Below, piece after piece: positions 7,485-54,681 of a stretch of DNA of 60,716 bases. Position 1 is the first letter of the stretch. Each line of letters begins with the position of its first letter. The notes beneath the pieces are model-generated. The model made no database searches and had not been told where the DNA came from. It saw only the letters and a program-made list of their open reading frames with translations. Source of the stretch: Candidatus Dormiibacterota bacterium (lineage in GTDB: Bacteria > Chloroflexota > Dormibacteria > Aeolococcales > Bog-877); the NCBI GenBank assembly GCA_027306885.1, contig DAHUYV010000072.1, forward strand, positions 1 through 60,716, given 5' to 3'. The position numbers and the translations under genes were made by a program.

Positions 7485-7487
7485 GAG

Positions 7488-13366: not shown

Positions 13367-13380
13367 CGCCCGCGTGCCCC

Positions 13381-14172: not shown

Positions 14173-14175
14173 CGG

Positions 14176-14772: not shown

Positions 14773-14781
14773 GGGCCGATT

Positions 14782-22446: not shown

Positions 22447-23362
22447 CTGTCACCCATCTGTAGTCGACTCTGTCCCACCCGCCTCCCGGAACGCCCGAGA
22501 AGTTCATCTCCGAGATCTCGAAGGACCCCGGCTTCACCGCCACCACGTAGGCGACATGTCCGTACCCGTAGCTCTCGCCAGCCACATCGATGCCCCACAC
22601 CACCACCGAGCCCACCTCTGGCGTCTGCCCCTCGGCGTACCCCGCGGCCGCCGCGTTGGCCCACCACTGGTAGGCGTTGCCACCCCAGGTCACCTTGCGC
22701 TGGGAGGCAACCCACCAGGTGCAGTCGCCGAAGGCGAACGACCAGTTGCCGGTCCCGATGCTCGGCTGCGGCGTGGTGAGCTCAGCCAGAAGCTGCTGCG
22801 ACTTCACCCCCAACTGGTCCTGGACGGCCATCGCCTGGCCCTCGTCGGCCCGCAGCTGGGCGGTGGAGGTCGCCACCACCTGCTGGTCGTGCTCAATGGT
22901 GCCCACCAGCTGGGCGACCTGAGAGGCGACGGCGGCCGGGAGCGTCGTGCTGGCGAGGAACTGGGAGAGGTTGGGGGCGGCCAAGGCGTCGGCCACCGCC
23001 TGACTGCCGTTCCCGTCCACATACGCGGTGCTGACCAGGTTGGTGAGCGCGAGCCGGTCGGCCGCCATCTGCTGCTGCAGGGCTCCGGCCGCCTGCTGAT
23101 CTGCGGACAGCTTGGAGTTGAGCTGCACGAGGTAGGCCTGCTCGCTCTGGATTTGGGTCAGCAGAGCAAGCACCTGGCTCTGTGAGGTGAGATCCCCCTG
23201 AGCGCGGAGCTGGTCTAGCAGTCGGGTGAGCTGGGCCTGGTCATTGGCGAGTCCCTGCTGGGCGCTGGCGTTAGGACCTGGCCCCAGCACGGCTGAGAGC
23301 CAGACCATTCCGGCCATCGTGATCGCAAGCGAGACGCGCCCAAGAACTTGGGCTCCGCGCAT
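22406..23362 (-). CDS. Secreted coiled-coil + CHAP domain peptidoglycan hydrolase
   Basis: Signal-like N-terminus, coiled coil, FAFGDCTWWV, YGHVAYV; ends LGFIYG. ATG with SD GGGAGG. Confidence 0.88.
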   Translation of the reverse strand: MRGAQVLGRVSLAITMAGMVWLSAVLGPGPNASAQQGLANDQAQLTRLLDQLRAQGDLTSQSQVLALLTQIQSEQAYLVQLNSKLSADQQAAGALQQQMAADRLALTNLVSTAYVDGNGSQAVADALAAPNLSQFLASTTLPAAVASQVAQLVGTIEHDQQVVATSTAQLRADEGQAMAVQDQLGVKSQQLLAELTTPQPSIGTGNWSFAFGDCTWWVASQRKVTWGGNAYQWWANAAAAGYAEGQTPEVGSVVVWGIDVAGESYGYGHVAYVVAVKPGSFEISEMNFSGVPGGGWDRVDYRWVTDGAGYLGFIYGPA

Positions 23363-23425
23363 ACGTCCTCCCACATAAGCGCGTGCGTTACGGGGGTGGA
23401 CGGTAACCGATCCCCCCCGGCCGGG

Positions 23426-25982: not shown

Positions 25983-25996
25983 GGTGCCGGCCCGGA

Positions 25997-26299
25997 TCAG
26001 TCCGTGCCGGCCAGCAGCTGACGGCGCAGGCGCAGGCGCTCCTCGGCCCGGAGCTCCTCAAGGGCGGAGAGCAGGGCCGCCGTCGACTCCTGCGCCGCCC
26101 TCGAAATCTCGACCAGACGGGGATCGTCGAGGTCGAGCAGGCGGGCCTCCAACCGTTCTCCCCGCCGCAGCAGCGAGCGGGTCTCGGATGTGGCGGCGTC
26201 CAGTCCCTGCAGCCTGCCGAGGGCGCGGCCCCGGGAGCCTCGCCTCCCGACGGGGGATCCCGGCTCATCCTCCAGCTCGTCCCCCGGCTCGATGGTCAC
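25997..26299 (-). CDS. Small hypothetical coiled-coil protein
   Basis: Leu/Glu/Arg-rich helical ORF; the start is uncertain. Confidence 0.45.
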   Translation of the reverse strand: MTIEPGDELEDEPGSPVGRRGSRGRALGRLQGLDAATSETRSLLRRGERLEARLLDLDDPRLVEISRAAQESTAALLSALEELRAEERLRLRRQLLAGTD

Positions 26300-26669: not shown

Positions 26670-27917
26670 CTACGGCTGGGCCAGCGCCGAGCGTCCGGGG
26701 CGCCGGCCGAAGCACGGGATCAGCAGGACCCCAGCCACCAGGTACGAGGCCGCCATCACCGTGAACCCGGCCCCGAAGCCCAGGTGTTGGATCACCTGGC
26801 CCAGTCCCACGATCCAGAGGGAGCCGACGCCGTATGAGAGGGCGAAGTAGATGCCGAACATGCTGGCCTGGGCTGAGCTGGTCACGCTGTCGCTGACCAG
26901 GGCCTGGAGCAGGGGGTTCTCCACATAGGCGACCAGTCCCACCACCAGGGCCAGGGCGGCGATGCCCGCCAACGGGAGCGACGAGGCCAACCCGAAGGAG
27001 AGCACCGCCACGGCCGAGAGCGCGTACGCCGCCCACAGCACCGGGACCCGGCCCAGGCGGTCCGAGAGGAGCCCCCCGAGGATGGGGCCGAGAACCGCGC
27101 CGAGCAGCATGAGGTTGAAGATCACCCCGACGGTCGTCTCGGGGAGGTGCACACCGTTGCGCAGGTAGAGCGGGACGAAGGCGTTCAGGGTGCCCAGCCC
27201 CCGGCCGCCGGCGGCCACGGTCGCCGCGATCACGCCCAACACGGCGACCCTCGGATCGATGAGCTGCTGGCGACTGAAGCGAGGCAGGCGGGGCCGCAGC
27301 CCAAGGCGTGGGAGCCCGGACTCCCGGTCCCCGGGGACCGGGGGGAAGGTGAGCAGCAGGATCAGGCCGAGGAGGAAGAGCGGCGCCGCCAGCGCCAGCA
27401 GGGTTGGGCGCCAGCCCAGGCGGCTGATCATCAGCGCAGCGGGGATGGGGATGATCAGCGACCCCACGCCTCCTCCGATGGTGGTGATGCTGAGCGCGGT
27501 GCCGCGCCGTTCCGGATACACCCGCGTGGCCACCGAGCTGCCCACCGGATGCTGCTGGCTGGAGGCGAGCAGGGCCAGTCCCTGCCCGGTGGCGAAGACC
27601 CCGAAGTTCGGGGCCAGCGAGCCCACGATGGCGCACAGCCCGACCACCAGGTTCTGGCAACCGAGGATCCACCGCGCCGCCACCCGCCTCCCCACGTAGC
27701 CCGCGCTGGCCTGGGTCAGGCCACCCACCACTCCTATGACCCCGACCGCCAAGCCCAGCGTCGCGTAGTTGAGGTGGAAGTCGATGAGGACCGCGGGGTA
27801 GGTGAGCGGGATCAGCGCCGAGTACATGTGCTGGCCGGCGTGGGAGGTGGCCACGAGGCCCAGCGCCCGGCGGCGGCGCACCCCAGCCAGCTCTCGCGGC
27901 TCCTGGGTGACCTCCAT
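26670..27917 (-). CDS. MFS transporter
   Basis: About 12 TM segments, motif A-like GGLLSDRLGR and QHP; ATG after TATCCT-N7. Confidence 0.9.
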   Translation of the reverse strand: MEVTQEPRELAGVRRRRALGLVATSHAGQHMYSALIPLTYPAVLIDFHLNYATLGLAVGVIGVVGGLTQASAGYVGRRVAARWILGCQNLVVGLCAIVGSLAPNFGVFATGQGLALLASSQQHPVGSSVATRVYPERRGTALSITTIGGGVGSLIIPIPAALMISRLGWRPTLLALAAPLFLLGLILLLTFPPVPGDRESGLPRLGLRPRLPRFSRQQLIDPRVAVLGVIAATVAAGGRGLGTLNAFVPLYLRNGVHLPETTVGVIFNLMLLGAVLGPILGGLLSDRLGRVPVLWAAYALSAVAVLSFGLASSLPLAGIAALALVVGLVAYVENPLLQALVSDSVTSSAQASMFGIYFALSYGVGSLWIVGLGQVIQHLGFGAGFTVMAASYLVAGVLLIPCFGRRPGRSALAQP

Positions 27918-27946: not shown

Positions 27947-28615
27947 TCACTGAGGCGGCGAGCGTCCGTAGATGAAGCCGGCCAGCCGCTCGACGGTGCT
28001 TCCGCTGGAGGCTGCCGCGACACCCCGAAGGTCGACGAACGGGGCGGCCGGCCCCGGGAGCGCCCAGTTGGCCTCCGCCACTGTGTACGCTCCATCGGCC
28101 GCCACCCCGACGACGAAGGCCACGTGCCCGGGCCCGGCGTCGGTGTAGACCGCGATCGCGCCGAGCTCCGGCGCTGGTCCCACCATGTACCCGGCGGCGG
28201 CCGCCAGCGCCAGCCATTGCCCGCCGTTCCCTCCCAGCAGCCCCTGCGGGGTTCGCCAGGTCACCAGGCGGCGGGTGGCGACGTACCAGGTGCACTGGCC
28301 CGTGGCGAACCCCTGGTAGTCATAGGGGTAGGGGTACGGATGCCCGGTGCACGCCGACGGTTCGAGGGCCAGGGCGCCTGGCTCCGGGCCGCAGGGAAGC
28401 GCCCAGGCCGGGAAGCTGGGGCTGCCGGCCAGCAGGACTGCGCCGGGCCCCAGCATCATGCCCCCGGGTCCCGGCAGCAAGCCCCCCAGTGCCGGCCACC
28501 CCGCGGCGGCGGCCCCCGCCCCCAGCAGGCCGAGCACGGACACCACCGCCACCGCCGGAACCAGGCAGCCCGCCGCCAGCAGGGGCCCGGTCCCGGCCAG
28601 CAACCCCCGCCTCAA
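27947..28615 (-). CDS. TM-anchored CHAP domain cell-wall hydrolase (VirB1-analogue of module 2)
   Basis: FATGQCTWYV, GNGGQW, GHVAFV and AGFIYG; TTGA overlap with the virB4 stop. Confidence 0.85.
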   Translation of the reverse strand: MRRGLLAGTGPLLAAGCLVPAVAVVSVLGLLGAGAAAAGWPALGGLLPGPGGMMLGPGAVLLAGSPSFPAWALPCGPEPGALALEPSACTGHPYPYPYDYQGFATGQCTWYVATRRLVTWRTPQGLLGGNGGQWLALAAAAGYMVGPAPELGAIAVYTDAGPGHVAFVVGVAADGAYTVAEANWALPGPAAPFVDLRGVAAASSGSTVERLAGFIYGRSPPQ

Positions 28616-30840
28616 GGGTGTCCCGGGCCGGCAAGGTGCCCGGTCAGCAGCGCCCTCTGCCAGGCCGGGGGGGCTGCCCCGCGGAAGGCGGCCCGCTCCT
28701 CCCCCACCAGCACCAGGCCGGAGCCGGCCTCGACCCCCTGGAGCAGCTCACATTCGGCCGGAGAGAGGGAGAAGGCCCGCCTCAGGGAGGGGATGGCCAC
28801 CGGCTCCTGCCGCAGGAGCAGCTTGGTGTGGCAGTTGCGGATGATCACGTTGCCGACGGTCGAGCCGAGAAAGTCCTCCACCACCTGGGAGACCACCAGC
28901 AGGCCGGCGCCCAGCTTTCGGATGCGCCGCGCCATCGCCTCCAGGAAGTGGGCGCTGGATTCCGACGAAAGCAGGATCTCGGCCTCATCGACCACCAACA
29001 GCGTAGGCAGCGCCGATCGGGCTTCCAGCTCCGCCTCCAGGTGCCACAGGACGAGCTCCATCGCGGTGCCCAGGAGTTGGTCGCGTCCGGCCTGGAGATG
29101 GCGCAGGGAGATGACGGCGACATCGCCCGCGGGGGGTGGCCCCGCCCCGTCGAAGATCCCGCTGTCGGCGCCGCCGAGATAGCTCTCCAGCTGGTGGGCG
29201 GGGCGCTCCAGACCCGCCTGGCGCAGCCGGTCCACCAGGGCGGCCAGACTCGCCCCGACCGGGTCGGCTCTGAGCAGAGCCTCGACGACCTCGCCCAGCC
29301 GTTCGCGGGGCTGGGGCCCGAGCTGGATCCCCCTCGCCGCCAGGGCGCGCGCCACCAGACCCGCTGCCCGGCTGGCTCGGCGGGCCGGGTCCTGACCCGG
29401 CGCCGCCGGCCCCAGTGGGTTGAGGCCCGCAGTGCCCGCGGCGCCGAGCTCGACCACGCTCCCACCCAAGAGGTGGGCAAGCTCCAGGTACTCGCCGGAG
29501 GGGTCCAGGCAGCGGATTCGGCAGCCCGAGATCGCCAGCCGGGCGGCCAGCACCTTGGTGGTGTAGGACTTGCCAGCGCCCGAGGTCCCGAGGACCACCA
29601 CGTTGCGATTGGGATTCGCGGCGGCCAGGAGGTCCACCGAGATCAGCTCTCGGGACACCGGGCTGGGCCCGAGCAGCACCCCCGACCCTGTGCTCAGGCC
29701 GGCGCGGAGGAATGGCAGTGCCGTGGCCGCCGCCCCCGCGGTCATGTCCCGGGTCCAGCCCAGCGGGTCGATCCCGGCGGGCAGGGTCGCCCGCCACCCA
29801 TCCACCTGGCGATTGGTGAGGGGGACGGGGGTGCATCCCAGCTCCGCCAGGGAGGCGATCAGGCGGTGCCAGGCGGTGTCCAACTCCTCCTTCGTGGCCG
29901 CCTCCAGGGTGATGCAGGTGAGCATCCGGAAGAGCCGTTCCTCCTCCAGGAGCACCCGCTCCTCCAGCGCCAGGGCATCTCCCAGCGCCGCCCGAGTGCC
30001 GGTGTCGGGTCGGCGCCCTCGCCGGCGGTCGACCTCGAGCCCGGTTTCGAACGAGCGAATCCGCCGGCGCAGATGTCCGAGGCTGGCCAGCTTGGGGATC
30101 GGGTACAGGTGCTGGGCGAGGCGCAGCGGACACGGCGGGCCGAGCACCACGGGGGCGAGCCAGCCCACCGCCAGCCGGCGTGGGTATCCCTGCACAACCA
30201 GACTTCGGCACACCCGGCCCGGGCAGACCAGCTGGTCCGCCTCCACCACGGCGGAGTCGGGGGCGAGCCAGCTGGGAAAGTCGGCAGGAACCCTGCCGCT
30301 GCGCCCACCGGTGTGTTCTTGCAGCAGCCCCAGCCACGTGCCGTCGCTCACCGGCCGGCAGTGCAGCCCCGCCCCCTCGAAGCTTGCGGCGAGCGCCTGT
30401 CGGCGCCGTTCCAGATCTATCGGTGCTCTGGGTGCGCGCCGAAAGGCCGAGAGGGCCCCGAGGGTGCCAGGCGCCGGGTCATCCCAGATGACCGCCAGAT
30501 GTCTTCGGGCGTGGATCGTGCCCCGGCTCAGAAGCTCTCTGGCGAAGGCGGAGTCCGCCTTCGCCTGGGGGCCGCTCGACCCCGGCGAAGCGCCGGGGGG
30601 CGGCAGTGGCCGTGAGTATGTGTAGAGGGAGATCGAACCCGCCAGGGCCGAGAGGGCCCTCCGGTAGCGCCTCCAGACCAGGTCCCGTTCGGCATCGCCC
30701 TTGAGGATGAGGTTGACGGCATCGACCTCGAGAGCGGCCCGCCGCCTCCCGTCTCGGAGCTCGGCCCAGCCGCCATCGATGCGGGTGACGTCGACGAGCT
30801 CGGTGGTGCTCGAGTGCCGGCCGCCGCTCCGGTGGCTCAA
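28612..30840 (-). CDS. virB4: VirB4/TraE-like secretion ATPase (module 2)
   Basis: NRNVVVLGTSGAGKSY, LDPSGEY, LLVVDEAE, ARRIRKLGAGLLVVSQ and LLRQ. TTG start overlaps the prgI-like stop. Confidence 0.92.
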   Translation of the reverse strand: MSHRSGGRHSSTTELVDVTRIDGGWAELRDGRRRAALEVDAVNLILKGDAERDLVWRRYRRALSALAGSISLYTYSRPLPPPGASPGSSGPQAKADSAFARELLSRGTIHARRHLAVIWDDPAPGTLGALSAFRRAPRAPIDLERRRQALAASFEGAGLHCRPVSDGTWLGLLQEHTGGRSGRVPADFPSWLAPDSAVVEADQLVCPGRVCRSLVVQGYPRRLAVGWLAPVVLGPPCPLRLAQHLYPIPKLASLGHLRRRIRSFETGLEVDRRRGRRPDTGTRAALGDALALEERVLLEEERLFRMLTCITLEAATKEELDTAWHRLIASLAELGCTPVPLTNRQVDGWRATLPAGIDPLGWTRDMTAGAAATALPFLRAGLSTGSGVLLGPSPVSRELISVDLLAAANPNRNVVVLGTSGAGKSYTTKVLAARLAISGCRIRCLDPSGEYLELAHLLGGSVVELGAAGTAGLNPLGPAAPGQDPARRASRAAGLVARALAARGIQLGPQPRERLGEVVEALLRADPVGASLAALVDRLRQAGLERPAHQLESYLGGADSGIFDGAGPPPAGDVAVISLRHLQAGRDQLLGTAMELVLWHLEAELEARSALPTLLVVDEAEILLSSESSAHFLEAMARRIRKLGAGLLVVSQVVEDFLGSTVGNVIIRNCHTKLLLRQEPVAIPSLRRAFSLSPAECELLQGVEAGSGLVLVGEERAAFRGAAPPAWQRALLTGHLAGPGHP

Positions 30841-31214
30841 GGTCCGGTCCCGGCGGCCGGGGCGGCGTTCCAGGGCAGGGGACCACGGCTCGACGGGCCT
30901 TGGTCCACCCAGCGGTATCCCCCAACCTGGGCCACCGAGTCGGGGTGGGAGAAGCGGTGCGGCTGCAGGCGAAAGAGGATCGCGTCCAGGAGGTAGACGT
31001 CCAGCCGGCGGCCGTGGCGGAGCCCGAACCCCAGCGCGGCCGCGATCGAGGCCCAGGGAGCGCTCAGGGTCACTAGCGGGGCCAGCCCGAGATGCAGGCG
31101 AAAACAGGCCAGAGGGACCGCTCCGGCGACCGCGAGCCAGCCGAGCTGACCCGTGGTCAGCCCGCCCCACCTGGAGGGCAGGTTCGAGATCGGCTGGGGA
31201 ACCTCGGCTTCCAT
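30837..31214 (-). CDS. PrgI family (VirB3-like) membrane protein (module 2)
   Basis: EVPQPI...RWGGLTTGQLGWL, two TM segments, GRRLDVYL..AILF...P; TGATG overlap with virB6. Confidence 0.8.
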   Translation of the reverse strand: MEAEVPQPISNLPSRWGGLTTGQLGWLAVAGAVPLACFRLHLGLAPLVTLSAPWASIAAALGFGLRHGRRLDVYLLDAILFRLQPHRFSHPDSVAQVGGYRWVDQGPSSRGPLPWNAAPAAGTGP

Positions 31215-33373
31215 CAACTACCGCCAGTTGGGTCCGGTGTCGGGCGGGATGAGGGGCGGAGCCGCCCGCGTCTGAGGGCGTTGAGGTAGGCGACGTCGAT
31301 CTCGTGGATCTGGGAGCCTCCGGCCATCTCGTAGCGCTGGCCAAGGCGCACAAGGGACCCCTGCGCGTCCGGCCCCGCCGACAGGGTCCGCAGGCTCGCC
31401 AGCTCCTCGTCACCCAGGCCCAGCCGGCTGCGCAGCTCGTCCGGGTGCCCCCGACCATCGGCGAGCCAGCGGCCGATGAACTCGTGCCGCGACTCTCGCC
31501 CCTCGACCGAGGGCCAGTGGGTCGCGCCGAGCAGCCCGGCCTGCTCCAGCTGGCTCGCCGTCGCGATGTCCGGGGGGGCCGGGCGCCCGAGGACAGCCGC
31601 TGAGCTCCGCTGCAGGCGGGACCCGAAGCGCATCGCGCGCGGGGTCCCCTCCTGGTTCACCAGCAGCGCTCCGCCCAGCACGACGCCTCCGGTCACCTCC
31701 GCCAGGCGGCGCAGCCGGTGGGTGGTGGAGAGCTCGCCCCGGCTGATCCGACCGGGCACCTCCAGCATCAGCCACACCGTCACCGCCGCCAGCAGGCACT
31801 TGGCGAACTGGTCGCCCGGGTTCCCGCTGCCGACCTCGGCGAGCAGGCCCTGGGTGGCGGCGCCGCAGCCCTGATTCCCGCTCTGGGAGATCAGCGGACA
31901 GGGCCCGTGGGCAGCCACCGGGGCCAGCCCCGACACCGTGGACACGACGGCCACGAAGGCGAGGAAGATGAGGGTCTGGACCACGACGACCGCCGAGAGG
32001 GCACCAATAGTGGCCCAGTACCGGGCGAACAGCGGTCGGCCCCCGGGAAGGGCGAGCGCCACGAACGCCAGGCTGGAGCACCCGGCCAGGAGCGCCAGCA
32101 CGATGAAGCGGGCGAGGTAGGTCAGGGCCAGCCACAGCCCGAGCCCGGTGAGCACCGTGAACGCCAGCAGGCCGACGAGGCCGTCCGGGACGTCGTAACC
32201 ATTGCGTCCGTGGGGCCCCACACCGGACCACACGTCGGTGTAGGTGGGGACCGTGCCCCAGTAGATGTCGGCGTAGCGGCAGTCCGCCGGACTCTGCCCG
32301 TTCCCCGCCCGCGGCTCGCCGGACAGAGGGAGCAGCCCCAGCTGCGGGGACCCCACATCGGAGCCCCCCGAGCCCTCCAGACAGTCCTGCCCCTGGTTGG
32401 AATTGACCTGGTTGTCGGTGTTGTCACAGAGCGGCTGCCCCGGGGCCGCGTCGCCACGGTCGCAGTTGGCGTCGTGGAGCGGCGGGCCGAAGAAGTTCTC
32501 ACTTCGATCGAGCACCTCCTTGGCGAAGTCGGGGCTGCTGGCCCCGATGCAGTGCGATTGGGTGAAGCGAGGGTCCATCCAGGGGTCGACCAGCACCTGC
32601 TGTCGAGGCGAGGGACCGGGAAGTGAGAGGTGGATGCCCGGGTGGATGATCGGGCTGTCCTCTGGGCAATAGGCCGTGATCGCCAGGACCGTCATCATGT
32701 CCAGGGGCTGGGCCTGGTGGCCACCGAGCTCGTGGAAGGACTCCTGGAGGATCCCGCCGGCGAGCCAGCTCCCGGCGTCGATGAGCCGGCCGGCGAGGTG
32801 GAGTGGAAGTCCCGCTCCGAGCACCGCCGCCGCCACCAGGCAGGGGACGATGCCCTGGCGCAGGTTCAGCTGCTGACCGGCCATGAACAGGGAGACCTGG
32901 ACGGCGAAGGCGATCACGAGCAGGGCCAGCGCCAGCGGCACCAGGATCTGGTTGAGGCGCTGGACCCAGGGTATGCAGCCCCCGGGCCCGCACTGATGGG
33001 CCGGTTCACCAAGGCTGCCGTCGTAGTTGTCGACCACCGGGTTGGTTCCAACCAGGGTTGTGATCAGATGCCAGGGGCCCGAGGTCACTGCTCCCGTCGT
33101 GGGGTCGATGTGGGCTGGGTCCGGACTGCCGTCGAGGCTGCCCATGATCGCCACCGGGCCCGAGACGAAGGCGTCGATCACGTAGCAGAAGGGGTCCGTG
33201 ATGCCCCCGCACTGCTGGCTGGTGCTGGCGGCCACCGTCTCGGCGGGGGCGGGGGCCGGCTGCACAGCGCTCAGCTGAACCGCGGTGGCGGGCCGCGGGC
33301 CCAGTGCCAGGGCGCTCCAGGTCAGCGCCGCCAGCCCGAAGCCGGTCCGCCTCAGGGTCCGTTGGCGGAGCAA
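31214..33373 (-). CDS. Large VirB6/TrbL-like membrane protein with Cys-rich extracellular loops (module 2)
   Basis: Signal-like N-terminus, several TM segments, the TrbL-like LARFIVLALL...LAFVALALPGGRPLFARYW core, 15 Cys; lies between the pilin-like and prgI-like genes. Confidence 0.72.
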   Translation of the reverse strand: MLRQRTLRRTGFGLAALTWSALALGPRPATAVQLSAVQPAPAPAETVAASTSQQCGGITDPFCYVIDAFVSGPVAIMGSLDGSPDPAHIDPTTGAVTSGPWHLITTLVGTNPVVDNYDGSLGEPAHQCGPGGCIPWVQRLNQILVPLALALLVIAFAVQVSLFMAGQQLNLRQGIVPCLVAAAVLGAGLPLHLAGRLIDAGSWLAGGILQESFHELGGHQAQPLDMMTVLAITAYCPEDSPIIHPGIHLSLPGPSPRQQVLVDPWMDPRFTQSHCIGASSPDFAKEVLDRSENFFGPPLHDANCDRGDAAPGQPLCDNTDNQVNSNQGQDCLEGSGGSDVGSPQLGLLPLSGEPRAGNGQSPADCRYADIYWGTVPTYTDVWSGVGPHGRNGYDVPDGLVGLLAFTVLTGLGLWLALTYLARFIVLALLAGCSSLAFVALALPGGRPLFARYWATIGALSAVVVVQTLIFLAFVAVVSTVSGLAPVAAHGPCPLISQSGNQGCGAATQGLLAEVGSGNPGDQFAKCLLAAVTVWLMLEVPGRISRGELSTTHRLRRLAEVTGGVVLGGALLVNQEGTPRAMRFGSRLQRSSAAVLGRPAPPDIATASQLEQAGLLGATHWPSVEGRESRHEFIGRWLADGRGHPDELRSRLGLGDEELASLRTLSAGPDAQGSLVRLGQRYEMAGGSQIHEIDVAYLNALRRGRLRPSSRPTPDPTGGS

Positions 33374-33639
33374 CTGCTAGTGGTGCACGCGGTGTTGTTG
33401 CCCGACAGCCCTTCGACAAAAGAGAGGATGGCGCCCTCGTTGACCAGCAAGAGGACGCCGAGGAGGACGGTGATCAATCCCTGGATCGCCGCCGCTCGCC
33501 GCTGGCTGTTGTCCAGGGAGGTCATGTAGCGGATGGCGGCGAAGCTGAGGCAGAGGACCGCCACCGCTCCCAGGGCGAGCGTCGTGACCGTGTGGATGAC
33601 GTTGTCCAGCCCGGTGGCGAAGCTGGCGAGGACGGTCAC
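33352..33639 (-). CDS. Small 2-TM pilin-like protein (VirB2/TrbC-like; module 2)
   Basis: 95 aa with two hydrophobic helices separated by RYMTSLDNSQRRAAA; GTGA overlap with virD4. Confidence 0.6.
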   Translation of the reverse strand: MTVLASFATGLDNVIHTVTTLALGAVAVLCLSFAAIRYMTSLDNSQRRAAAIQGLITVLLGVLLLVNEGAILSFVEGLSGNNTACTTSSCSANGP

Positions 33640-35204
33640 CCCGGTTTCTCCGGGAGGGCGGCGACCGGGGAGCGGCTCCATACCAGCGGCCCCCTGGGGG
33701 AGGGGAGCCGCTGGGAGGCGATCGGCTGTCCGGGCGCCGGGCGCGGCGGCTCCCACTCCCCTCCCGGCCGGGTCGCCTGCCAGCGCAGGCGACCATCTTG
33801 GAACCAGGGACGCTGGCGGATGACCGCCGGGTGGTCGCTGCCCCGGAGAACCAGGGCCCGACCGGCCCGCAATCGGCGGATCTCGTCGGGCGGGATCAGC
33901 GAATGGGGGCCGAGGGGGTCTCCCCGGCGCCCGGCGCCGCCGTGCAGCGTCGCCGCGCCCGCCAGTCGGCTGGCGCGCTCCAACAGGTCCACCTCAGATA
34001 TCCCCGGCAGGAGCATCTTGGTGCGGCAGTTGGCCCAGAGGGCGGTGACGGTGTCGGACCCGTAGAGCGACCCGATCGAGGCGAGGTCCTGGGCCAGCAG
34101 GATCATTCGCACCCCCTGAGTCCGGCCCAACTGGACCAGCGAGGGCAGCTCCGGAAGGGCGGTCAGCTGGGCGAACTCGTCGAGAACGAAGAGAACCGGG
34201 ACCTTGGGCGGATCGGCGAACACCGCCCGCCAGCACGCCGCCAGCAGGGCGCTGAGCAGTCCCCGCAGCAACGGCGCGTCCGGCGGACTCACCACGCAGT
34301 AGAGGGTGGCCAGGCCACCGTTGGCGACCGCTGTGGGGTCGAACGTGCTGGTGGAGGTGCAGGAGGCGACCTGCCCGGTTCCGAAGACCCCCAGCCGAGC
34401 GACCAGGGTGGCCACGACCCCCATCGCGGTGCGGTCGCCGCCGCTCAGGGCGCCCTGAACCAGGCTCCGGGCCGTCGGATGGAGGACCTCCCCCGCCACC
34501 TCCTCCGCGGGGACCTGCTGGAGCAGGGCCAGGAGCTGGGGGAGGGTGAGGCCGGCGAAGGCCGCCTCCACCAGGAGGCCGTGCAGCAACTGAAGCGCCA
34601 GTTCGTGCCAGAAGGGCTCTCGCTCCGGGGGCTTGCCCATGAGGAATCCGGCGGTCCGCAGCGCGTCCTCAGAGCTGGAGATGGCGGCGACGGGATTCCA
34701 GCGGTCGCCGGGCGCCATCAGGGGTGCGAACACCGCCGCCGCGCCGCGCTCGCGCCGGGCGCCGATGGTCCTCTCCAGGAGCTCACCCTTCGGGTCGGTG
34801 ACTATCACCGCACCCGGCCACTCCAGGATCGCCGGGATCGCGATCGAGCTGGACTTCCCAGATCCCGTCGGCCCCAGAACCAGCAGGTGCTCGTCCTCGG
34901 GCAGGAACAAGGGCGAGGAGCGAGCGGTGCCCAGCCGCACGCGGGCCCCGTCGCCCCGGTGCCGATGCAGGGCCCTGAGGTCCCACCAGCGAGCGTGGCG
35001 GGCGCGGCCAAGGGGCCCGGGGCGGAGGGGCGACCTCTCCCCGCTGAACCAGACCAGGGCGAGGCCGGCCGCCTCCAGTCCTCCGAGAAGGGCCAGCGGG
35101 CCGGCCGGGCCCGTTCCGCTGCGCAGGCTGGCGGCGAGGACCGCGACCGTGACCATGGCGGCGGGAATCGCCAGCGCGGCCAGCTCCCCCTGCCTCTTCT
35201 CCAC
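33636..35204 (-). CDS. virD4: Type IV coupling protein (VirD4/TraG)
   Basis: Two N-terminal TM segments, HLLVLGPTGSGKS, VIVTDPKGEL, LFVLDEFAQL, GRTQG..ILLAQ and LIPPDEIRRL. Confidence 0.93.
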   Translation of the reverse strand: MEKRQGELAALAIPAAMVTVAVLAASLRSGTGPAGPLALLGGLEAAGLALVWFSGERSPLRPGPLGRARHARWWDLRALHRHRGDGARVRLGTARSSPLFLPEDEHLLVLGPTGSGKSSSIAIPAILEWPGAVIVTDPKGELLERTIGARRERGAAAVFAPLMAPGDRWNPVAAISSSEDALRTAGFLMGKPPEREPFWHELALQLLHGLLVEAAFAGLTLPQLLALLQQVPAEEVAGEVLHPTARSLVQGALSGGDRTAMGVVATLVARLGVFGTGQVASCTSTSTFDPTAVANGGLATLYCVVSPPDAPLLRGLLSALLAACWRAVFADPPKVPVLFVLDEFAQLTALPELPSLVQLGRTQGVRMILLAQDLASIGSLYGSDTVTALWANCRTKMLLPGISEVDLLERASRLAGAATLHGGAGRRGDPLGPHSLIPPDEIRRLRAGRALVLRGSDHPAVIRQRPWFQDGRLRWQATRPGGEWEPPRPAPGQPIASQRLPSPRGPLVWSRSPVAALPEKPG

Positions 35205-35356
35205 CGCAGCTGTCAGTCCTGCCGAGGCCCATGCTTGGGGCGCTAGGTCGTCGCGACGGCCCCGTCTCCGGCCGCCGCCCGCCCGTTACATGAATTTGCC
35301 GGACTGCTGCACGAACTTGCACAAACGCGGCAGCCCGCGGGCCTAGACTGCGGCCG

Positions 35357-35839
35357 ATGGCCAGTCCAGCCCCCCGTCCCCGTGCCGCGGTTCGCCAGAC
35401 CGGGGGGCGGACGATCCTGGTCGCGGATCGCGACCAGCGATCTCGGACCGCCACCGGGGCGATCCTTCGGCGCCTCGGATTCGAGGTGGCAGAGGCCGAT
35501 TCCTCGCGAGCCGCCCTCTCCCGCGGGCGCTCAGGTCCTTACTCCTGCGGGATCCTGGACCTCAACCTCTCCGACTCCGGGCCCTTCGACCTCTGCCGCC
35601 GGCTGCTGGCCACCCCGGGGTGGACGTGGACCCCGGTGATCTTCACCTGCGTCAGATCGCCTGAGCTCGACCTGCGCTCCGCACTTCAGGACGGGGGCTT
35701 CGCGTACCTCCTCAAGCCCTTCCGGGCGGACCAGCTCCTGGCGGCCGTCGGCGATGCCCTGGCGGCCTCGGTACCCCTCCGCGAAGCCCAGCCCGACCGG
35801 CGGCTGGTGCTGGCTCAGGCGGAGGCCGCCGCGGGCTGA
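35357..35839 (+). CDS. Single-domain response regulator (CheY-like receiver)
   Basis: ILVAD, phospho-acceptor ILDLNL and YLLKPF; no output domain; ATG after TAGACT-N7. Confidence 0.85.
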   Translation: MASPAPRPRAAVRQTGGRTILVADRDQRSRTATGAILRRLGFEVAEADSSRAALSRGRSGPYSCGILDLNLSDSGPFDLCRRLLATPGWTWTPVIFTCVRSPELDLRSALQDGGFAYLLKPFRADQLLAAVGDALAASVPLREAQPDRRLVLAQAEAAAG

Positions 35840-35849
35840 TCCGGGCCGG

Positions 35850-37985
35850 CTACGGGCTGGGGGTTGCCACCCCCGTTGGCGAGGGCGTTGGCGCTGGGAC
35901 CGATGGGGTGGGAGTCGTCTCCGGCGAGATGGCTGGATAGGGTGTGGGCGTCGTTGTGGGTGCCGGTGAAGGAGCTGTCGACCCCCCTCCCAGAACTTGG
36001 GAGGTCGGCCCGGTGCCCGGCAGGTAGTAGTTGATCTCTCCGTTCTGGGAGTGGGAGGTGAGTCCGGGCGGCTCGGCGTACCACTGGTTCGGCGCTCCGG
36101 CCAGGGCCGCCTCCATGAACTGGTTCCAGAGGGAGGCCGACCCACTGATGCCGTTGAGTCCACCACCGTACATCGGAGAGTCGTTGGTGTTGCCCACCCA
36201 GTCGGCCCCGACCAGGGTGGGCGTCCAGCCGACCGCCAGGTTGTCGAGGTAGTTGTTGGAGGTACCGGTCTTGACCGCGGCCGTGTGCCCCGCCAACACC
36301 AGGGGGGTGCTGGGCCCGAAGGCGATCAGCCGGTTGCTGTTGCGGGACAACATGGTGTTCATGATGTAGGCGACCTGGGGAGTCAGCACCTGGGTGGCGC
36401 TGGTCTGGGCCTGGAAGAGCACCTGCCCCTGCTGGTTCTGCACCTGCTGGACGAAGTGCGCGGGGTGGAGCACACCTCCGGTCGCGAAGACCGAACCCGC
36501 CTGGGCCATCTCCCACAGCGGCACCGGGTAGGCGCCGAGGGTCATGCTGGGCCCGTACGAGGACGCCGGTCCGGACAGCGTCGTCACCCCCATGCCTCGA
36601 GCGGTGGCCAGGATCTGGGGAATCCCGGTCGCCAGTTCGACCCGCACCGCCGGCACGTTGAGCGAGTTGCCGAGCGCCACCTGGATCGGCACCACGCCGG
36701 CGTAGGTGCCCTCATAGTCATGCACGACAAAGGGTCCTCCCCCAGGACCCCCCGTGGGCAGGCTGTAGGGGCTGTCCCGGACCGGGGTGGTCATCGTGAC
36801 CTTGCGGTCCGCGATCGCGGTGGAATAGGTGAAGAGCTTGAAGGTGGACCCCGGCTGGCGGGGCTGCGCGGCCATGTCGATCTGACCTCCAGGGGCGCTG
36901 GCGCCAGCCCCCCCCACCCAGACCTCGATGTCGCCCGTCACGGGGTTCTCCGCCACCAGAGCCCCGTCGGTCATGTGCATCGCCCGATGGGCGGCGATGT
37001 CCGCGGTCACCAGCGCCTGCGCCTTCTGGTTGAGGGCCAGGTTCAAGCTGGTGTAGACGCGCAGGCCCATGGTGCCGTAGCTGGGGCCGTAGCGCTGCTG
37101 CAGCCAGGAGCCCACCGCGTCCACGAAATAGGGAGCGTTGTTGACCGGCGCCTCGCTCCCCGAGCCCAGCTGCGGGGCGGTGGCCAGCACCGTCCGGGCC
37201 GCGGCGGCGCTCAGGTCCCCGTACTTGACCATGGCCGCCACCACCGCCTGCTGCCGGAGGCGGGCGCCCGACATGTTGTCGAAGGGATCCAGGTAGGACG
37301 GTGCCGGCAGTAGCCCGGCCAAGAGCGTCGCCTGCTCGACGTTCAGCTGGGCGGCGCTGACGCCGAAGTAGGTCTCCGCTGCCGCCTGAATTCCCGTTGC
37401 GCCCTGGCCGAAGTAGACGTCGTTCAGGTAGTCGTCGAGGATCTGCGATTTCGAGAGGTGGGAGGTGAGTTCGTTGCCGAACAGGATCTCTTTGACCTTG
37501 TAGGTGATCGACTTGTTGTCGGTGAGATAAAGGAGCTTGGCCACCTGCTCAGGTATGGTGCTGGCCCCCTGGGCCGCACTGCGGTGCAACACGTCGAAGA
37601 TGCCGGCCTCGACGATGCGACCGACGTCGAAGCTGGGAGCGGTCCAGAAGCTGTGGTCCTCTATCGCCACCACCGCTTGGCGCATCACCGGGGCGATCTG
37701 GGCAAGGGGAACCGGTATCCGGCTGGTGCCGGGGGGGTGCAGGTCGGCGACGACCTGGTTCCCCTGCCCATAGACCACCGTGTCCGTGGGCAGCTGCCGG
37801 GGTGGCGGCAGTGAGCTGTAGGCTCGCGCCAGCGCCGTGGTGGGCACGGTCAGCACCACCGCCGCCGCCAGCACCAAGAGGGCGGCGATCGCGAGCAGCT
37901 GGCGCCAGTCGAGCGCTCCGGGTTGGTCGCGGCGTGGGCGGCCCGCGTGGGCGGACGCCCGTCGCCGTTTGTTTGTCTCAGGCAT
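35850..37985 (-). CDS. Class A penicillin-binding protein (PBP1A; transglycosylase-transpeptidase)
   Basis: TG domain AIED, GAST and YLNDVYFG; TP motifs STFK, SLN and KTG. Confidence 0.93.
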   Translation of the reverse strand: MPETNKRRRASAHAGRPRRDQPGALDWRQLLAIAALLVLAAAVVLTVPTTALARAYSSLPPPRQLPTDTVVYGQGNQVVADLHPPGTSRIPVPLAQIAPVMRQAVVAIEDHSFWTAPSFDVGRIVEAGIFDVLHRSAAQGASTIPEQVAKLLYLTDNKSITYKVKEILFGNELTSHLSKSQILDDYLNDVYFGQGATGIQAAAETYFGVSAAQLNVEQATLLAGLLPAPSYLDPFDNMSGARLRQQAVVAAMVKYGDLSAAAARTVLATAPQLGSGSEAPVNNAPYFVDAVGSWLQQRYGPSYGTMGLRVYTSLNLALNQKAQALVTADIAAHRAMHMTDGALVAENPVTGDIEVWVGGAGASAPGGQIDMAAQPRQPGSTFKLFTYSTAIADRKVTMTTPVRDSPYSLPTGGPGGGPFVVHDYEGTYAGVVPIQVALGNSLNVPAVRVELATGIPQILATARGMGVTTLSGPASSYGPSMTLGAYPVPLWEMAQAGSVFATGGVLHPAHFVQQVQNQQGQVLFQAQTSATQVLTPQVAYIMNTMLSRNSNRLIAFGPSTPLVLAGHTAAVKTGTSNNYLDNLAVGWTPTLVGADWVGNTNDSPMYGGGLNGISGSASLWNQFMEAALAGAPNQWYAEPPGLTSHSQNGEINYYLPGTGPTSQVLGGGSTAPSPAPTTTPTPYPAISPETTPTPSVPAPTPSPTGVATPSP

Positions 37986-38212: not shown

Positions 38213-38758
38213 ATGTCCCGACTCCTTCCCCACGAACAGGGTGAGCGCCCGGTGGTCGAGCCCTCCCGCATGCCGGTGCTGCGTCCCCCGACCCCGCGCG
38301 CGAACTGGAGGTTCACCGGGTTGGCCCTGGGCGGCCTGGCGGTGCTGGCGGTGCTGCGCCTGGCGGTGTCTCATCCCAGCCCTGCTCCGTCCCATCTCAC
38401 CCCGGCGGCGGCGGTGGCCGGCTATCTGGCCGCGACCTCGCGGGCGTCGGAGTCGCAGCTCCAGTCCTACCTCGCCCCTTCGGTCCGGGATGGGGCCGGC
38501 CCGATGCTGGCGGATCTGCGCCGCGATCGAGTCCGCCTGGTGTCCCCCTCGATCGGGGTGGCCAGTCAGCAGGGCACCACCGCCCAGGTGGAGGTGGCAC
38601 TGGAGATCTGCTACCGGAGCTCCGCCAAGGACCCTTACACCTGCGACCTGCTGAGCCATGCGCCGCTGGGTCTGCCAACCGAGATCGGGTGCCAGCTGAT
38701 CAACGGCCGTTGGTACGTCAACACCCTGCTCGAGCCCCAGCCCCTCGCGCCGTCGTAG
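38213..38758 (+). CDS. Hypothetical bitopic membrane protein with extracytoplasmic NTF2-like domain
   Basis: Short cytoplasmic tail, one TM segment, a helix-then-strands domain ending GRWYV, and 3 Cys. Confidence 0.65.
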   Translation: MSRLLPHEQGERPVVEPSRMPVLRPPTPRANWRFTGLALGGLAVLAVLRLAVSHPSPAPSHLTPAAAVAGYLAATSRASESQLQSYLAPSVRDGAGPMLADLRRDRVRLVSPSIGVASQQGTTAQVEVALEICYRSSAKDPYTCDLLSHAPLGLPTEIGCQLINGRWYVNTLLEPQPLAPS

Positions 38759-54680: not shown

Positions 54681-54681
54681 C

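What the first reader, a model, noticed from the sequence alone, without database searches (positions are those of the whole stretch)
27947..35204. Module 2: compact six-gene virD4-pilin-virB6-prgI-virB4-CHAP operon in ICE gene order but relaxase-free
Seen: every junction overlaps (GTGA at 33636-33639, about 22 nt at pilin/virB6, TGATG at 31214, TTGA at 30837-30840 and at 28612-28615). Walker A/B motifs in both ATPases are intact. The operon is bounded by an MFS gene with its own promoter and by a divergent receiver gene. Established: the order matches FATA-type transfer modules, where a CHAP hydrolase substitutes for VirB1. Inference: the operon is functional and is the minimal core of a secretion channel.
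Basis: partly seen in the sequence, partly recalled or inferred. Interest (0 to 1): 0.8.

Follow-up and report, generated by a model that had tools for sequence, protein, structure and literature searches.

The report
Phylum-wide chromosomal type IV secretion operon
A six-gene secretion machine of the kind Gram-positive bacteria use for conjugation sits at the same chromosomal place in every Dormibacterota genome examined, so it is an inherited part of the cell and not a mobile element; what it transports is unknown.

Summary
The six minus-strand genes are real and tightly coupled. They encode a VirD4 coupling ATPase, a 95-aa VirB2-like pilin, a 719-aa polytopic VirB6/TrbL-like protein, PrgI (VirB3-like), VirB4 and a CHAP hydrolase. 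The window comes from Candidatus Dormibacterota (72% GC).

The operon and about 25 kb of housekeeping flanks (fumarase, PBP1A, receiver, hemE, ubiA and others) are collinear in all 23 species-level Dormibacterota loci retrieved, including a complete chromosome. All six genes are intact wherever the contig allows. dN/dS is 0-0.23, and the pilin is about 60% invariant.

I found no relaxase, integrase, transposase, tRNA, att-like repeat or compositional anomaly in the 60.7 kb window. This is therefore not an ICE or an ICE remnant. It is a domesticated, vertically inherited monoderm T4SS.

The gene order matches Bacillota relatives (VirD4, 2-TM protein, TrbL_4, 2-TM protein, VirB4, M23 hydrolase). 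The closest precedent in concept is the relaxase-free chromosomal T4SS of Patescibacteria, but a VirB4 tree does not make the two sisters.

The MFS gene is dispensable (absent in 9 loci), and the claim that it has its own promoter is unsupported. No VirB8-like gene was identified. The substrate is unknown. My preferred reading, export fed by the coupling protein, is inference.

The parts
33636..35204 (-). VirD4-type coupling protein (T4CP), 522 aa. It has hydrophobic N-terminal segments, Walker A GPTGSGKS and Walker B VLFVLDEF. It is the first gene of the operon.
   Evidence: Pfam T4SS-DNA_transf 2.1e-41, TrwB_AAD_bind 1.9e-25, TraG-D_C 2.3e-19. Best NCBIfam match is the CD1115 family, 7e-35, below the equivalog cut-off. 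PDB: TrwB 1e-6. Present in all Dormibacterota loci that reach it, 57-70% identity. dN/dS 0.13-0.23.
33352..33639 (-). VirB2-like pilin, 95 aa. It is a two-helix hydrophobic hairpin with a charged loop and two invariant C-terminal cysteines.
   Evidence: PF18895 T4SS_pilin 2.7e-5 (24.6 bits, threshold 26.6). All 14 orthologues match PF18895 and 12 match TrbC/VirB2. NCBIfam Mbov_0395 pilin-like 8e-4. 56 of 95 positions are invariant across 14 species. dN/dS 0-0.07. The short GTG start is preferred because the upstream extension is not conserved.
31214..33373 (-). VirB6/TrbL-like polytopic membrane protein, 719 aa. It has an N-terminal signal or anchor and at least 5 TM helices. Two large cysteine-rich extracytoplasmic regions (about residues 53-135 and 205-400) are nearly invariant. 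It also has a C-terminal cytoplasmic helical domain.
   Evidence: No Pfam, NCBIfam or PDB hit. 56 homologue clusters, all Dormibacterota or unnamed, all 'hypothetical'. 9/30 orthologues weakly match TrbL_4 and 2/30 match TrbL. hhalign against the TrbL_4 protein at 12470-13537: Prob 71%, E 3.7e-5. hhalign against an alignment of TrbL_4 proteins: Prob 82.7%, E 9.5e-6, spanning residues 73-584 with the ectodomain as an insertion. It occupies the slot that TrbL_4 holds in Bacillota relatives. dN/dS 0.11-0.12.
30837..31217 (-). PrgI (VirB3-like) small membrane protein, 125-126 aa.
   Evidence: PF12666 PrgI 2.3e-6, 28.5 bits, above the threshold of 27. A profile of the Dormibacterota orthologues finds the PrgI genes directly upstream of VirB4 in 9 Patescibacteria loci. 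37-54% identity across the phylum.
28612..30840 (-). VirB4 ATPase, 742 aa, with N-terminal and ATPase domains fused. Walker A GTSGAGKS, Walker B LLVVDEAE.
   Evidence: P-loop_TraG 6.7e-13, AAA_10, DUF87. Best NCBIfam match is the VirB4-like CD1110 family, 9e-48, below the equivalog cut-off. PDB 4AG5 VirB4, 7e-25. 59 orthologue clusters at 41-99% identity, those with a name mostly Dormibacterota. dN/dS 0.14-0.18.
27947..28615 (-). Membrane-anchored CHAP peptidoglycan hydrolase (the VirB1 role), 222 aa. The motifs GQCTWYV and GHVAFV are present.
   Evidence: PF05257 CHAP 2.7e-16. Present after VirB4 in all 22 loci that reach it, 64-78% identity. The deepest lineage has an extra M23 peptidase between VirB4 and CHAP. 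dN/dS 0.09-0.14.
35205..35356 (.). Divergent intergenic region between VirD4 and the receiver gene. It contains sequence blocks conserved across the phylum and is a probable promoter/operator region.
   Evidence: Alignment of 18 loci shows invariant blocks: CAGTCTAG (TAGACT on the receiver strand, 7 nt before its ATG), TTCCTGCACCGTTCCGGCAATGnCCTGTAACG and GTCGC. There is no conserved RNA structure and no sigma-70 consensus. A regulatory function is inferred.
35357..35839 (+). Stand-alone response-regulator receiver protein, 160 aa, divergent from the operon. It is a conserved neighbour and a possible regulator.
   Evidence: PF00072 8e-15, with no output domain. It is divergent from VirD4 in all 20 loci that reach it. 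Any link to the T4SS is inferred from position only.

Best explanation
This is a domesticated, vertically inherited type IV secretion machine of the monoderm (Gram-positive, FATA-like) kind. It belongs to the core genome of the phylum Dormibacterota and is neither an integrative conjugative element nor its remnant.

Proposed working, by analogy with characterised T4SSs; every step is inferred:
1. The six translationally coupled genes are transcribed from the conserved region shared with the divergent receiver gene.
2. The CHAP hydrolase opens the peptidoglycan locally.
3. PrgI/VirB3 and the VirB6/TrbL-like protein form the membrane channel, on which VirB4 hexamers dock.
4. The VirB6-like protein, with its large, nearly invariant, cysteine-rich ectodomain, serves as the platform on which the equally invariant VirB2-like pilin is assembled into a wall-spanning conduit or short pilus.
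5. The VirD4 coupling ATPase selects a cytoplasmic substrate (a protein or a nucleoprotein) and feeds it outward.

The coupling protein leads the operon in every genome. The surface parts are conserved rather than diversified. I therefore favour export of a conserved substrate, to the outside or to neighbouring cells, as a housekeeping function, over classical plasmid or ICE conjugation.

Shown: gene identities, operon structure, phylum-wide synteny, purifying selection, and absence of mobile-element genes in the window.
Inferred: assembly, direction of transport, and substrate.
For: Gene identities.

Organism: the VirB4 orthologues that carry a name are mostly Candidatus Dormibacteria/Dormibacterota.

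Synteny: Fum, hyp181, PBP1A, receiver (divergent), VirD4, pilin, VirB6-like, PrgI, VirB4, CHAP, (MFS present or absent), hyp198, UbiA, HemE, CHAP2, SLT, M20, MR_MLE. This order holds in all 23 species-representative loci, including the complete chromosome OY969577.1 and a 2.39 Mb contig, down to 41% VirB4 identity.

Conservation:
- All six ORFs are full length wherever the contig allows.
- dN/dS is 0-0.23 for five genes.
- The pilin (75-93% identity) and the VirB6-like protein (53-75%) are as conserved as fumarase (68-87%) and PBP1A (59-82%).

No mobile-element signs:
- No relaxase, integrase, transposase or replication protein in any substantial ORF of the 60.7 kb window.
- No tRNA and no att-like flanking repeats.
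- No GC anomaly.

Envelope type: no VirB7/9/10-type outer-membrane parts were found, which fits the inferred monoderm envelope of the Chloroflexi-CPR-Dormibacteraeota clade (bioRxiv 10.1101/2021.05.31.446380).

Ancestry: Bacillota relatives have the same order with a bona fide TrbL_4 in the VirB6 slot, pointing to a conjugation-type ancestor.

Mechanistic precedent: VirB6 acts as the stalk base and as the VirB2 recruitment and assembly site in R388 (PMC9259494).

Precedent for exaptation: the relaxase-free chromosomal T4SS of Patescibacteria (PMC12102498).
Against: - There is no direct evidence for any substrate, direction of transport or expression. All genomes are metagenome-assembled.
- A relaxase could be encoded elsewhere in the genome. 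Only 60.7 kb was examined here, and about 22 kb per relative.
- No VirB8-like component was identified. The nearby NTF2-like membrane protein (38213-38758) matches generic NTF2 folds, not VirB8.
- The VirB6 assignment rests on sub-threshold profile matches. The AlphaFold model was poor (pLDDT 53).
- The VirB4 and VirD4 NCBIfam scores are far below the equivalog cut-offs.
- Much of the surrounding region is collinear too, so adjacency to PBP1A or the receiver gene may reflect general gene-order conservation and not functional linkage.
Confidence: 0.6

Rival explanations
1. It is a working conjugation apparatus. A relaxase and oriT lie elsewhere in the chromosome or on an unlinked mobilisable element, and the operon moves chromosomal or element DNA between Dormibacterota cells.
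For: - A VirD4 coupling protein with a complete TraG-D_C domain leads the operon, as in conjugative systems.
- The nearest relatives with the same gene order sit next to mobile-element genes: a weak MobL match in L072, IS110 in L062, Replic_Relax in L083.
- Coupling-protein and relaxase genes are often far from virB4 (PMC12102498).
Against: - No relaxase was found in 60.7 kb.
- The locus is fixed and vertically inherited in 23 of 23 loci.
- A self-transmissible element would not be expected to stay at one site, free of integrase, across a phylum.
- Whole genomes could not be scanned.
Confidence: 0.2
2. It is an import machine that takes up DNA or other macromolecules from the environment or from neighbouring cells, as ComB of Helicobacter and Ced of Sulfolobales do, and as has been suggested for Patescibacteria.
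For: - It is relaxase-free, chromosomal and universally conserved, like the Patescibacteria system, whose authors discuss acquisition of molecules from hosts (PMC12102498).
- Patescibacteria VirB4 proteins are among the best non-Dormibacterota hits: top hit P0164 at 458 bits over the full length.
Against: - From my own knowledge, the known T4SS-type importers (ComB) lack a VirD4 coupling protein. Here VirD4 is the first gene in every locus.
- Dormibacterota are free-living with genomes of about 2.4-2.5 Mb (contig lengths), not reduced symbionts.
- VirB4 is never sister to the Patescibacteria clade in the tree (0 of 100 bootstraps).
Confidence: 0.12
3. It builds a surface filament only (adhesion, aggregation or biofilm) and translocates nothing.
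For: The pilin and the VirB6-like ectodomain are the most conserved parts, and VirB6 is the pilin assembly platform in R388.
Against: - Pilus production in characterised systems does not need the coupling protein. A 2026 mBio paper in the search list is titled 'VirD4 coupling proteins suppress accumulation of conjugative pili produced by type IV secretion systems' (PMC13463995, title seen, paper not read).
- Here VirD4 is under purifying selection (dN/dS 0.13-0.23) and always present.
Confidence: 0.06
4. It is a decaying remnant of an integrated conjugative element with no present function.
For: It has the gene order of a conjugative module and lacks a relaxase.
Against: - The ORFs are intact in all loci, and the catalytic motifs are invariant.
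- dN/dS is 0-0.23.
- Composition equals that of the flanks.
- The locus has been retained down to 41% VirB4 identity.
Confidence: 0.02

Closest known systems
Monoderm (MPF_FATA-type) conjugative T4SS modules, here represented by uncultured Bacillota loci L062/L066/L070/L072/L079 (NCBIfam CD1110 VirB4 and CD1115 VirD4 families; pCF10 Prg/Pcf as the textbook example, from my own knowledge)
   Same: - Same gene order: VirD4, small 2-TM protein, VirB6/TrbL_4, small 2-TM PrgI-like protein, VirB4, cell-wall hydrolase.
- No VirB7/9/10.
- Best NCBIfam hits are CD1110 and CD1115.
- These Bacillota loci are the most frequent labelled sister of the Dormibacterota VirB4 clade (40 of 100 bootstraps).
   Different: - Those loci carry mobile-element genes (IS110, a weak MobL match). 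This one has none and is fixed in the chromosome of a whole phylum.
- VirB6 is 719 aa here, with about 300 aa of invariant cysteine-rich ectodomain, against 286-365 aa there.
- The hydrolase is CHAP, not M23. Only the deepest Dormibacterota lineage also has M23.
- VirB4 is only about 31% identical.
Chromosomal, relaxase-free T4SS of Patescibacteria/CPR (PMC12102498)
   Same: - It is chromosomal, conserved across a phylum-level lineage, lacks a relaxase and is derived from monoderm conjugation machinery.
- It has PF18895-type VirB2-like pilins, PrgI and VirB6 next to VirB4.
- The host lineage belongs to the same monoderm clade, with Chloroflexota.
- The top non-Dormibacterota VirB4 hit is a Patescibacteria protein aligned over its full length.
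   Different: - In CPR, VirB4 is preceded by a separate TrsD-like N-domain gene. Here the two are fused.
- In CPR the coupling protein is rarely near virB4 (148 of 5,713). Here it always leads the operon.
- CPR often has arrays of divergent pilins (about 25% identity). Here there is one nearly invariant pilin.
[quoted passage not shown] Here CHAP is always present.
- VirB4 is never sister to CPR in the NJ tree.
- The Dormibacterota hosts have 2.4-2.5 Mb genomes and are not reduced epibionts.
'Type IVC' minimal T4SS of Streptococcus (VirB1-CHAP, VirB4, VirB6, VirD4 on the S. suis 89K island; PMC3464263 seen by title and abstract only, details from my own knowledge)
   Same: A minimal Gram-positive set of CHAP hydrolase, VirB4, VirB6 and VirD4.
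   Different: That system lies on a mobile pathogenicity island in some strains. This one is a core locus, and it has a VirB2-like pilin and PrgI in addition. No sequence comparison was made.
R388/pKM101 'minimized' VirB/D4 systems of diderms (PMC9259494)
   Same: VirB2, VirB3, VirB4, VirB6 and VirD4 equivalents are present. The mechanistic model of pilin assembly on a VirB6 platform is borrowed from there.
   Different: - No VirB5, VirB7-VirB11 equivalents.
- There is sequence similarity only for the ATPases: TrwB 1e-6, and VirB4 only to a Gram-positive structure, 4AG5.
- Foldseek gave no significant match of the VirB6-like model to R388 VirB6 (8rtd_L, E 6.3).

Membership tests
Type IV secretion system, monoderm (FATA-like) machinery | VirB4-family ATPase with intact Walker motifs | tested here: met
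   P-loop_TraG 6.7e-13, CD1110 family 9e-48, TIGR00929 3e-21. PDB 4AG5 7e-25. Motifs invariant in 15 orthologues.
Type IV secretion system, monoderm (FATA-like) machinery | VirB4 falls inside the curated FATA families (equivalog level) | tested here: not met
   CD1110 family score 163 bits against a cut-off of 325. CD1115 (VirD4) 121 bits against 250. Dormibacterota form their own clade (100 of 100), with an unstable sister group. CONJScan FATA profiles were not available.
Type IV secretion system, monoderm (FATA-like) machinery | VirB3-like PrgI next to VirB4 | tested here: met
   PF12666 28.5 bits, above the threshold of 27. It overlaps the VirB4 start.
Type IV secretion system, monoderm (FATA-like) machinery | VirB6/TrbL/PrgH-type polytopic channel protein | tested here: inconclusive
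   No Pfam hit for the window protein. 11 of 30 orthologues give weak TrbL_4 or TrbL matches. hhalign Prob 71-83%, E 1e-5 to 4e-5, to TrbL_4 proteins. Positional equivalence with TrbL_4 in Bacillota relatives. Structure model too poor to test.
Type IV secretion system, monoderm (FATA-like) machinery | Dedicated peptidoglycan hydrolase (VirB1 role) | tested here: met
   CHAP 2.7e-16, last gene, overlapping the VirB4 stop. Conserved in 22 loci.
Type IV secretion system, monoderm (FATA-like) machinery | VirD4/TcpA-type coupling protein | tested here: met
   T4SS-DNA_transf 2.1e-41, TraG-D_C 2.3e-19.
Type IV secretion system, monoderm (FATA-like) machinery | VirB8-like (PrgL/TraM, NTF2-like) bitopic protein | tested here: inconclusive
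   None in the operon. The conserved neighbour at 38213-38758 is a TM-anchored NTF2-like protein (pLDDT 77.6), but Foldseek gives generic NTF2 folds and the PBP2a N-domain, not VirB8.
Integrative and conjugative element (ICE) or conjugative module | Relaxase (MOB) and oriT associated with the T4SS | tested here: not met
   No relaxase family in any substantial ORF of the 60.7 kb window, nor in the gene lists of L001-L003. The whole genome was not testable.
Integrative and conjugative element (ICE) or conjugative module | Integrase/recombinase, attachment repeats, tRNA or other insertion site | tested here: not met
   No integrase or transposase (the same Pfam calls). No tRNA. Only imperfect GC-rich chance repeats.
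Integrative and conjugative element (ICE) or conjugative module | Patchy distribution with empty sites in relatives; composition differing from the host | tested here: not met
   Present at the same site in 23 of 23 loci. GC and GC3 equal those of the flanks.
Patescibacteria-clade chromosomal T4SS (PMC12102498) | VirB4 belongs to the monophyletic Patescibacteria clade | tested here: not met
   NJ tree of 237 VirB4 sequences over 543 columns: Dormibacterota were never sister to CPR sequences in 100 bootstraps. The method is crude (distance-based, saturated).
Patescibacteria-clade chromosomal T4SS (PMC12102498) | Chromosomal, without an associated relaxase, conserved across the lineage | tested here: met
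Patescibacteria-clade chromosomal T4SS (PMC12102498) | Separate TrsD-like gene (VirB4 N-domain); pilin arrays; coupling protein usually distant | tested here: not met
   VirB4 is fused and full length. There is a single pilin gene. VirD4 is the first gene of the operon.
Patescibacteria-clade chromosomal T4SS (PMC12102498) | Location near dnaA/oriC | not testable with these tools
   In the complete chromosome OY969577.1 the locus lies at 91-114 kb of 2.49 Mb, but the position of dnaA in that record could not be read.

The most novel reading that the evidence does not exclude
Dormibacterota carry, as a universal core organelle, a domesticated monoderm T4SS. Its wall-spanning part is built from an almost invariant VirB2-like pilin and a new cysteine-rich ectodomain grafted onto VirB6, which may replace the missing VirB5/VirB8-type parts. 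It would be the free-living counterpart of the essential T4SS of Patescibacteria, arising either from one domestication in the common ancestor of the monoderm Chloroflexota-Dormibacterota-Patescibacteria clade or from a striking parallel one. It would serve a non-conjugative function such as exchange of macromolecules between kin cells. The VirB4 tree did not recover the common-ancestor version (0 of 100 bootstraps), but long-branch effects in CPR mean it is not excluded.
Probability: 0.2. Interest if true: 0.8.

Novelty: new variant of a known kind. Interest (0 to 1): 0.62.

Why it matters
T4SSs are usually thought of as cargo of plasmids and ICEs, or as virulence devices. The only lineage-wide 'household' T4SS described so far in monoderm-type bacteria is that of the episymbiotic Patescibacteria, where it is essential but its function is unknown.

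Finding a second system that is conserved across a phylum, free of a relaxase in the window examined, and syntenic in a free-living neighbouring phylum has three consequences:
1. Such domestication is not tied to the epibiotic lifestyle.
2. The comparison is a clean one: the coupling protein is retained in the operon, there is one invariant pilin, and VirB4 is fused.
3. It points to a new VirB6 ectodomain family that may show how a T4SS crosses a monoderm wall.

I found no paper describing a T4SS in Dormibacterota.

Tried and rejected
- AlphaFold2 of the 719-aa protein with a 30-sequence alignment gave pLDDT 53 and pTM 0.33. Foldseek of that model against PDB gave nothing below E = 1.
- A profile search of PDB sequences with the same family found nothing.
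- The exact-sequence look-up of the 719-aa protein found no contig on record.
- The sigma-70 promoter scan of the operon region found no sites, and the terminator-like hits lie inside coding sequence.
- Rfam and tRNA scans of the window were empty.
- RNAalifold on the conserved VirD4/receiver intergenic region gave no structure (-0.19 kcal/mol). I therefore read the conserved blocks as DNA signals.
- I tested whether the NTF2-like membrane protein next to PBP1A is the missing VirB8. The fold is NTF2-like, but the matches are generic, including the PBP2a N-domain, so it may equally belong with PBP1A.
- I tested the idea that the Dormibacterota system is sister to the Patescibacteria one. HMM scores favoured it, but the bootstrap NJ tree did not.
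- A 36-nt imperfect inverted repeat (25986-26021 / 35815-35850) brackets the MFS-to-receiver stretch. Its 15-nt perfect core is within chance expectation for 72% GC DNA (my estimate), so I rejected it.
- The long alternative starts for the pilin (33756) and VirB4 (31458) were rejected. The frame plot switches at the junctions and the extensions are not conserved.


Full report
**The observation**

The window has 72% GC throughout. Plain ORF lists in such DNA are full of spurious frames, so I used third-position GC periodicity.

Read on the minus strand, the junctions are as described:
- GTGA at 33639-33636: the VirD4 stop overlaps the pilin GTG, with GGAG 7 nt upstream.
- A 22-nt overlap between the pilin stop (33352) and the TTG at 33373.
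- TTGATG at 31217-31212.
- TTGA at 30840-30837.
- TTGA at 28615-28612.

Both ATPases have intact Walker A and B motifs, and the VirB4 motifs are invariant in 15 orthologues. The receiver gene (35357-35839, +) is divergent.

One clause does not hold up. The MFS gene is on the same strand. Its ATG at 27917 lies 29 nt after the CHAP stop, and no promoter-like site was found.

**Gene identities**

| Gene | Evidence |
|---|---|
| VirD4 | T4SS-DNA_transf 2e-41, TrwB_AAD_bind, TraG-D_C; best NCBIfam CD1115 family |
| VirB4 | P-loop_TraG, AAA_10, DUF87; best NCBIfam CD1110 family 9e-48; nearest solved structure the Gram-positive VirB4 4AG5 (7e-25) |
| PrgI | PF12666, 28.5 bits, above Pfam's threshold |
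| CHAP | 2.7e-16 |
| Pilin (95 aa) | PF18895 T4SS_pilin just below threshold; all 14 orthologues match it and 12 also match TrbC/VirB2 |
| 719-aa protein | No Pfam, NCBIfam or PDB-sequence match; its 56 homologue clusters are all Dormibacterota or unnamed 'hypothetical proteins' |

The 719-aa protein has a signal or anchor, at least five TM helices and two large cysteine-rich extracytoplasmic regions. Three things support a VirB6/TrbL identity:
- 11 of 30 orthologues give weak TrbL_4 or TrbL hits.
- hhalign to the bona fide TrbL_4 protein elsewhere in the window gives Prob 71%, E 3.7e-5. Against a small TrbL_4 alignment it gives Prob 83%, E 9.5e-6, over the whole TM core with the ectodomain as an insertion.
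- In Bacillota relatives a clear TrbL_4 protein (1.6e-30) occupies exactly this slot.

Structure prediction failed (pLDDT 53) and Foldseek gave nothing.

**Where it comes from and how it is distributed**

VirB4 has 59 orthologue clusters at 41-99% identity. Most of those with a name are labelled Candidatus Dormibacteria or Dormibacterota. The next hit drops to 35%.

Gene lists around two distant orthologues (49% and 41% identity) showed the same operon and the same neighbours. A scan of one genome per GTDB species returned 23 Dormibacterota loci, among them a complete 2.49 Mb chromosome. In every one of them the order is:

Fum, hyp181, PBP1A, receiver (divergent), VirD4, pilin, VirB6-like, PrgI, VirB4, CHAP, (MFS), hyp198, UbiA, HemE, CHAP2, SLT, M20, MR_MLE.

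All six genes are full length wherever the contig allows. The MFS gene is missing from 9 of these loci, so it is not part of the system. The deepest lineage carries an extra M23 peptidase between VirB4 and CHAP.

**Selection**

Among four moderately diverged genomes, dN/dS is as follows:

| Gene | dN/dS |
|---|---|
| VirD4 | 0.13-0.23 |
| Pilin | 0-0.07 |
| VirB6-like | 0.11-0.12 |
| VirB4 | 0.14-0.18 |
| CHAP | 0.09-0.14 |

Across the phylum the pilin is 75-93% identical, with 56 of 95 positions invariant. The VirB6-like protein is 53-75% identical, and its ectodomains are the best-conserved parts. That is comparable to fumarase and PBP1A. VirB4 (41-62%) and PrgI (37-54%) evolve faster.

**No sign of mobility**

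Every substantial ORF of the 60.7 kb window was scanned against Pfam. The hits are housekeeping genes: LytB, MoxR/DUF58, Dtd, HemE, UbiA, PBP1A, fumarase, DegV, glycosyltransferases, an ABC transporter, acetyl-CoA synthetase and others. No relaxase, integrase, transposase or replication protein appears. There is no tRNA, no att-like repeat and no compositional step.

**Relatives outside the phylum**

An exhaustive HMMER search of 1.84 billion representatives with the VirB4 profile gave three Dormibacterota representatives above 1000 bits. After a gap came 458 bits for a Patescibacteria protein aligned over its full length, then an Actinomycetota MAG and a Colwellbacteria (CPR) protein. The Patescibacteria locus is PrgI, VirB4, M23 next to dnaN/dnaA. 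Another top hit sits in a mobile-element context: CHAP, T4SS_pilin, PrgI, VirB4, a 1068-aa protein and Replic_Relax on a contig that also carries an IS605-family gene.

A bootstrapped neighbour-joining tree (237 sequences, 543 columns) makes Dormibacterota monophyletic in 100 of 100 replicates. Its sister group is unstable:
- A group of uncultured Bacillota in 40 replicates.
- Unnamed metagenomic groups in 60.
- CPR or archaea in none.

Those Bacillota loci have the same order, with VirD4 at the head. CPR loci lack VirD4 within 10 kb and split VirB4 into two genes.

I conclude that the ancestor was a monoderm conjugation-type module. A special relationship to the CPR system is possible but not shown.

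**Comparison with the literature**

The Patescibacteria T4SS is described as chromosomal, mostly relaxase-free, FATA-derived, with PF18895/VirB2-like pilins often in divergent arrays, with the coupling protein rarely near virB4, and essential for epibiotic growth. The same paper notes that CPR is sister to Chloroflexota and Dormibacterota (PMC12102498). The three lineages are treated as one monoderm clade (bioRxiv 10.1101/2021.05.31.446380). This fits the absence of outer-membrane T4SS parts here.

Three full-text searches found no description of a T4SS in Dormibacterota.

**Mechanism (inferred)**

By analogy with R388, where a VirB6 pentamer forms the base of the stalk and the site where VirB2 is recruited and assembled (PMC9259494), I propose the following:
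- The VirB6-like protein and the pilin form the wall-spanning conduit.
- PrgI and VirB4 energise assembly.
- CHAP opens the wall.
- VirD4 feeds a cytoplasmic substrate outward.

The coupling protein leads the operon in every locus, which argues for export over import. The near-invariance of the exposed parts argues against an arms race with hosts or prey, and for a conserved partner such as the cell's own wall or kin cells. The substrate is unknown, and a relaxase elsewhere in the genome cannot be excluded.

**Verdict**

The finding is real and the genes are almost all correctly named. The right frame, however, is a phylum-wide, vertically inherited, domesticated monoderm T4SS and not a relaxase-free ICE module. 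It is a new variant of a known kind, of solid interest to people working on T4SS evolution and on uncultured Terrabacteria.

Noticed in passing
window 12470-16794 (-): There is a second, paralogous T4SS-like pair 12 kb from the operon. It consists of a VirB4-like ATPase (14782-16794; AAA_10/P-loop_TraG; 31% identical to VirB4 in the ATPase domain, Walker motifs intact) and a TrbL_4 VirB6-like protein (12470-13537). D-Tyr-tRNA deacylase and a 198-aa protein lie between them. The arrangement HemE, CHAP2, SLT, M20, MR_MLE, three small proteins, VirB4b, hyp198b, Dtd, TrbL_4, hyp247, LytB recurs in the longer of 14 related metagenome contigs; shorter contigs show parts of it. Its function and any relation to the main operon are unknown.
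   Followed up: partly
window 21814-23374 (-) and 1975-3141 (-): There are further wall hydrolases. A CHAP protein (22406-23374) overlaps an SLT transglycosylase (21814-22446), and this pair is conserved downstream of hemE in nearly all loci. A third CHAP protein lies at 1975-3141. SLT plus CHAP is the domain pair of Gram-positive VirB1-like hydrolases (from my own knowledge), so this pair might also serve the T4SS.
   Followed up: partly
window 35205-35356: The VirD4/receiver intergenic region holds blocks conserved across species whose proteins are only 50-60% identical. TAGACT lies 7 nt before the receiver ATG, which would fit a leaderless transcript. There is also an invariant CCTGTAACG, a GGAAC-like motif and GTCGC, reminiscent of ECF-type promoters (my reading, untested). 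No RNA structure was found.
   Followed up: partly
window 38213-38758 (+): A conserved 181-aa protein lies between fumarase and PBP1A. It has a TM anchor and an NTF2-like domain with two invariant cysteines (pLDDT 77.6). Foldseek hits are generic NTF2 folds, including the PBP2a N-terminal domain. It could be a PBP1A partner or the missing VirB8-like part.
   Followed up: yes
L021, L024 (and protein P0049): Public MAG records titled 'Candidatus Micrarchaeaceae archaeon' (DATKSI010000031.1) and 'Verrucomicrobiia bacterium' (DATKRN010000040.1), and a protein labelled 'Candidatus Acidoferrales', carry the full Dormibacterota syntenic block (P0049 by VirB4 sequence only). The taxonomic labels of these SMAG assemblies are probably wrong.
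   Followed up: no
window 26670-27917 (-): The MFS transporter directly after CHAP is present in some Dormibacterota loci and absent from 9 of them, while its neighbours stay in place. It is an indel hotspot between the T4SS operon and hyp198.
   Followed up: yes
window 5412-8549 (-): A 1045-aa ORF with no Pfam hit runs antisense to a DUF4350, MoxR (AAA_3), DUF58 gene series. It is probably a spurious ORF of high-GC DNA.
   Followed up: no
window 53931-58712: An apparent acetate-utilisation cluster: a LytTR response regulator and histidine kinase, acetyl-CoA synthetase and a GPR1/FUN34/YaaH transporter. GC falls to 0.66-0.67 between 56 and 59 kb.
   Followed up: no
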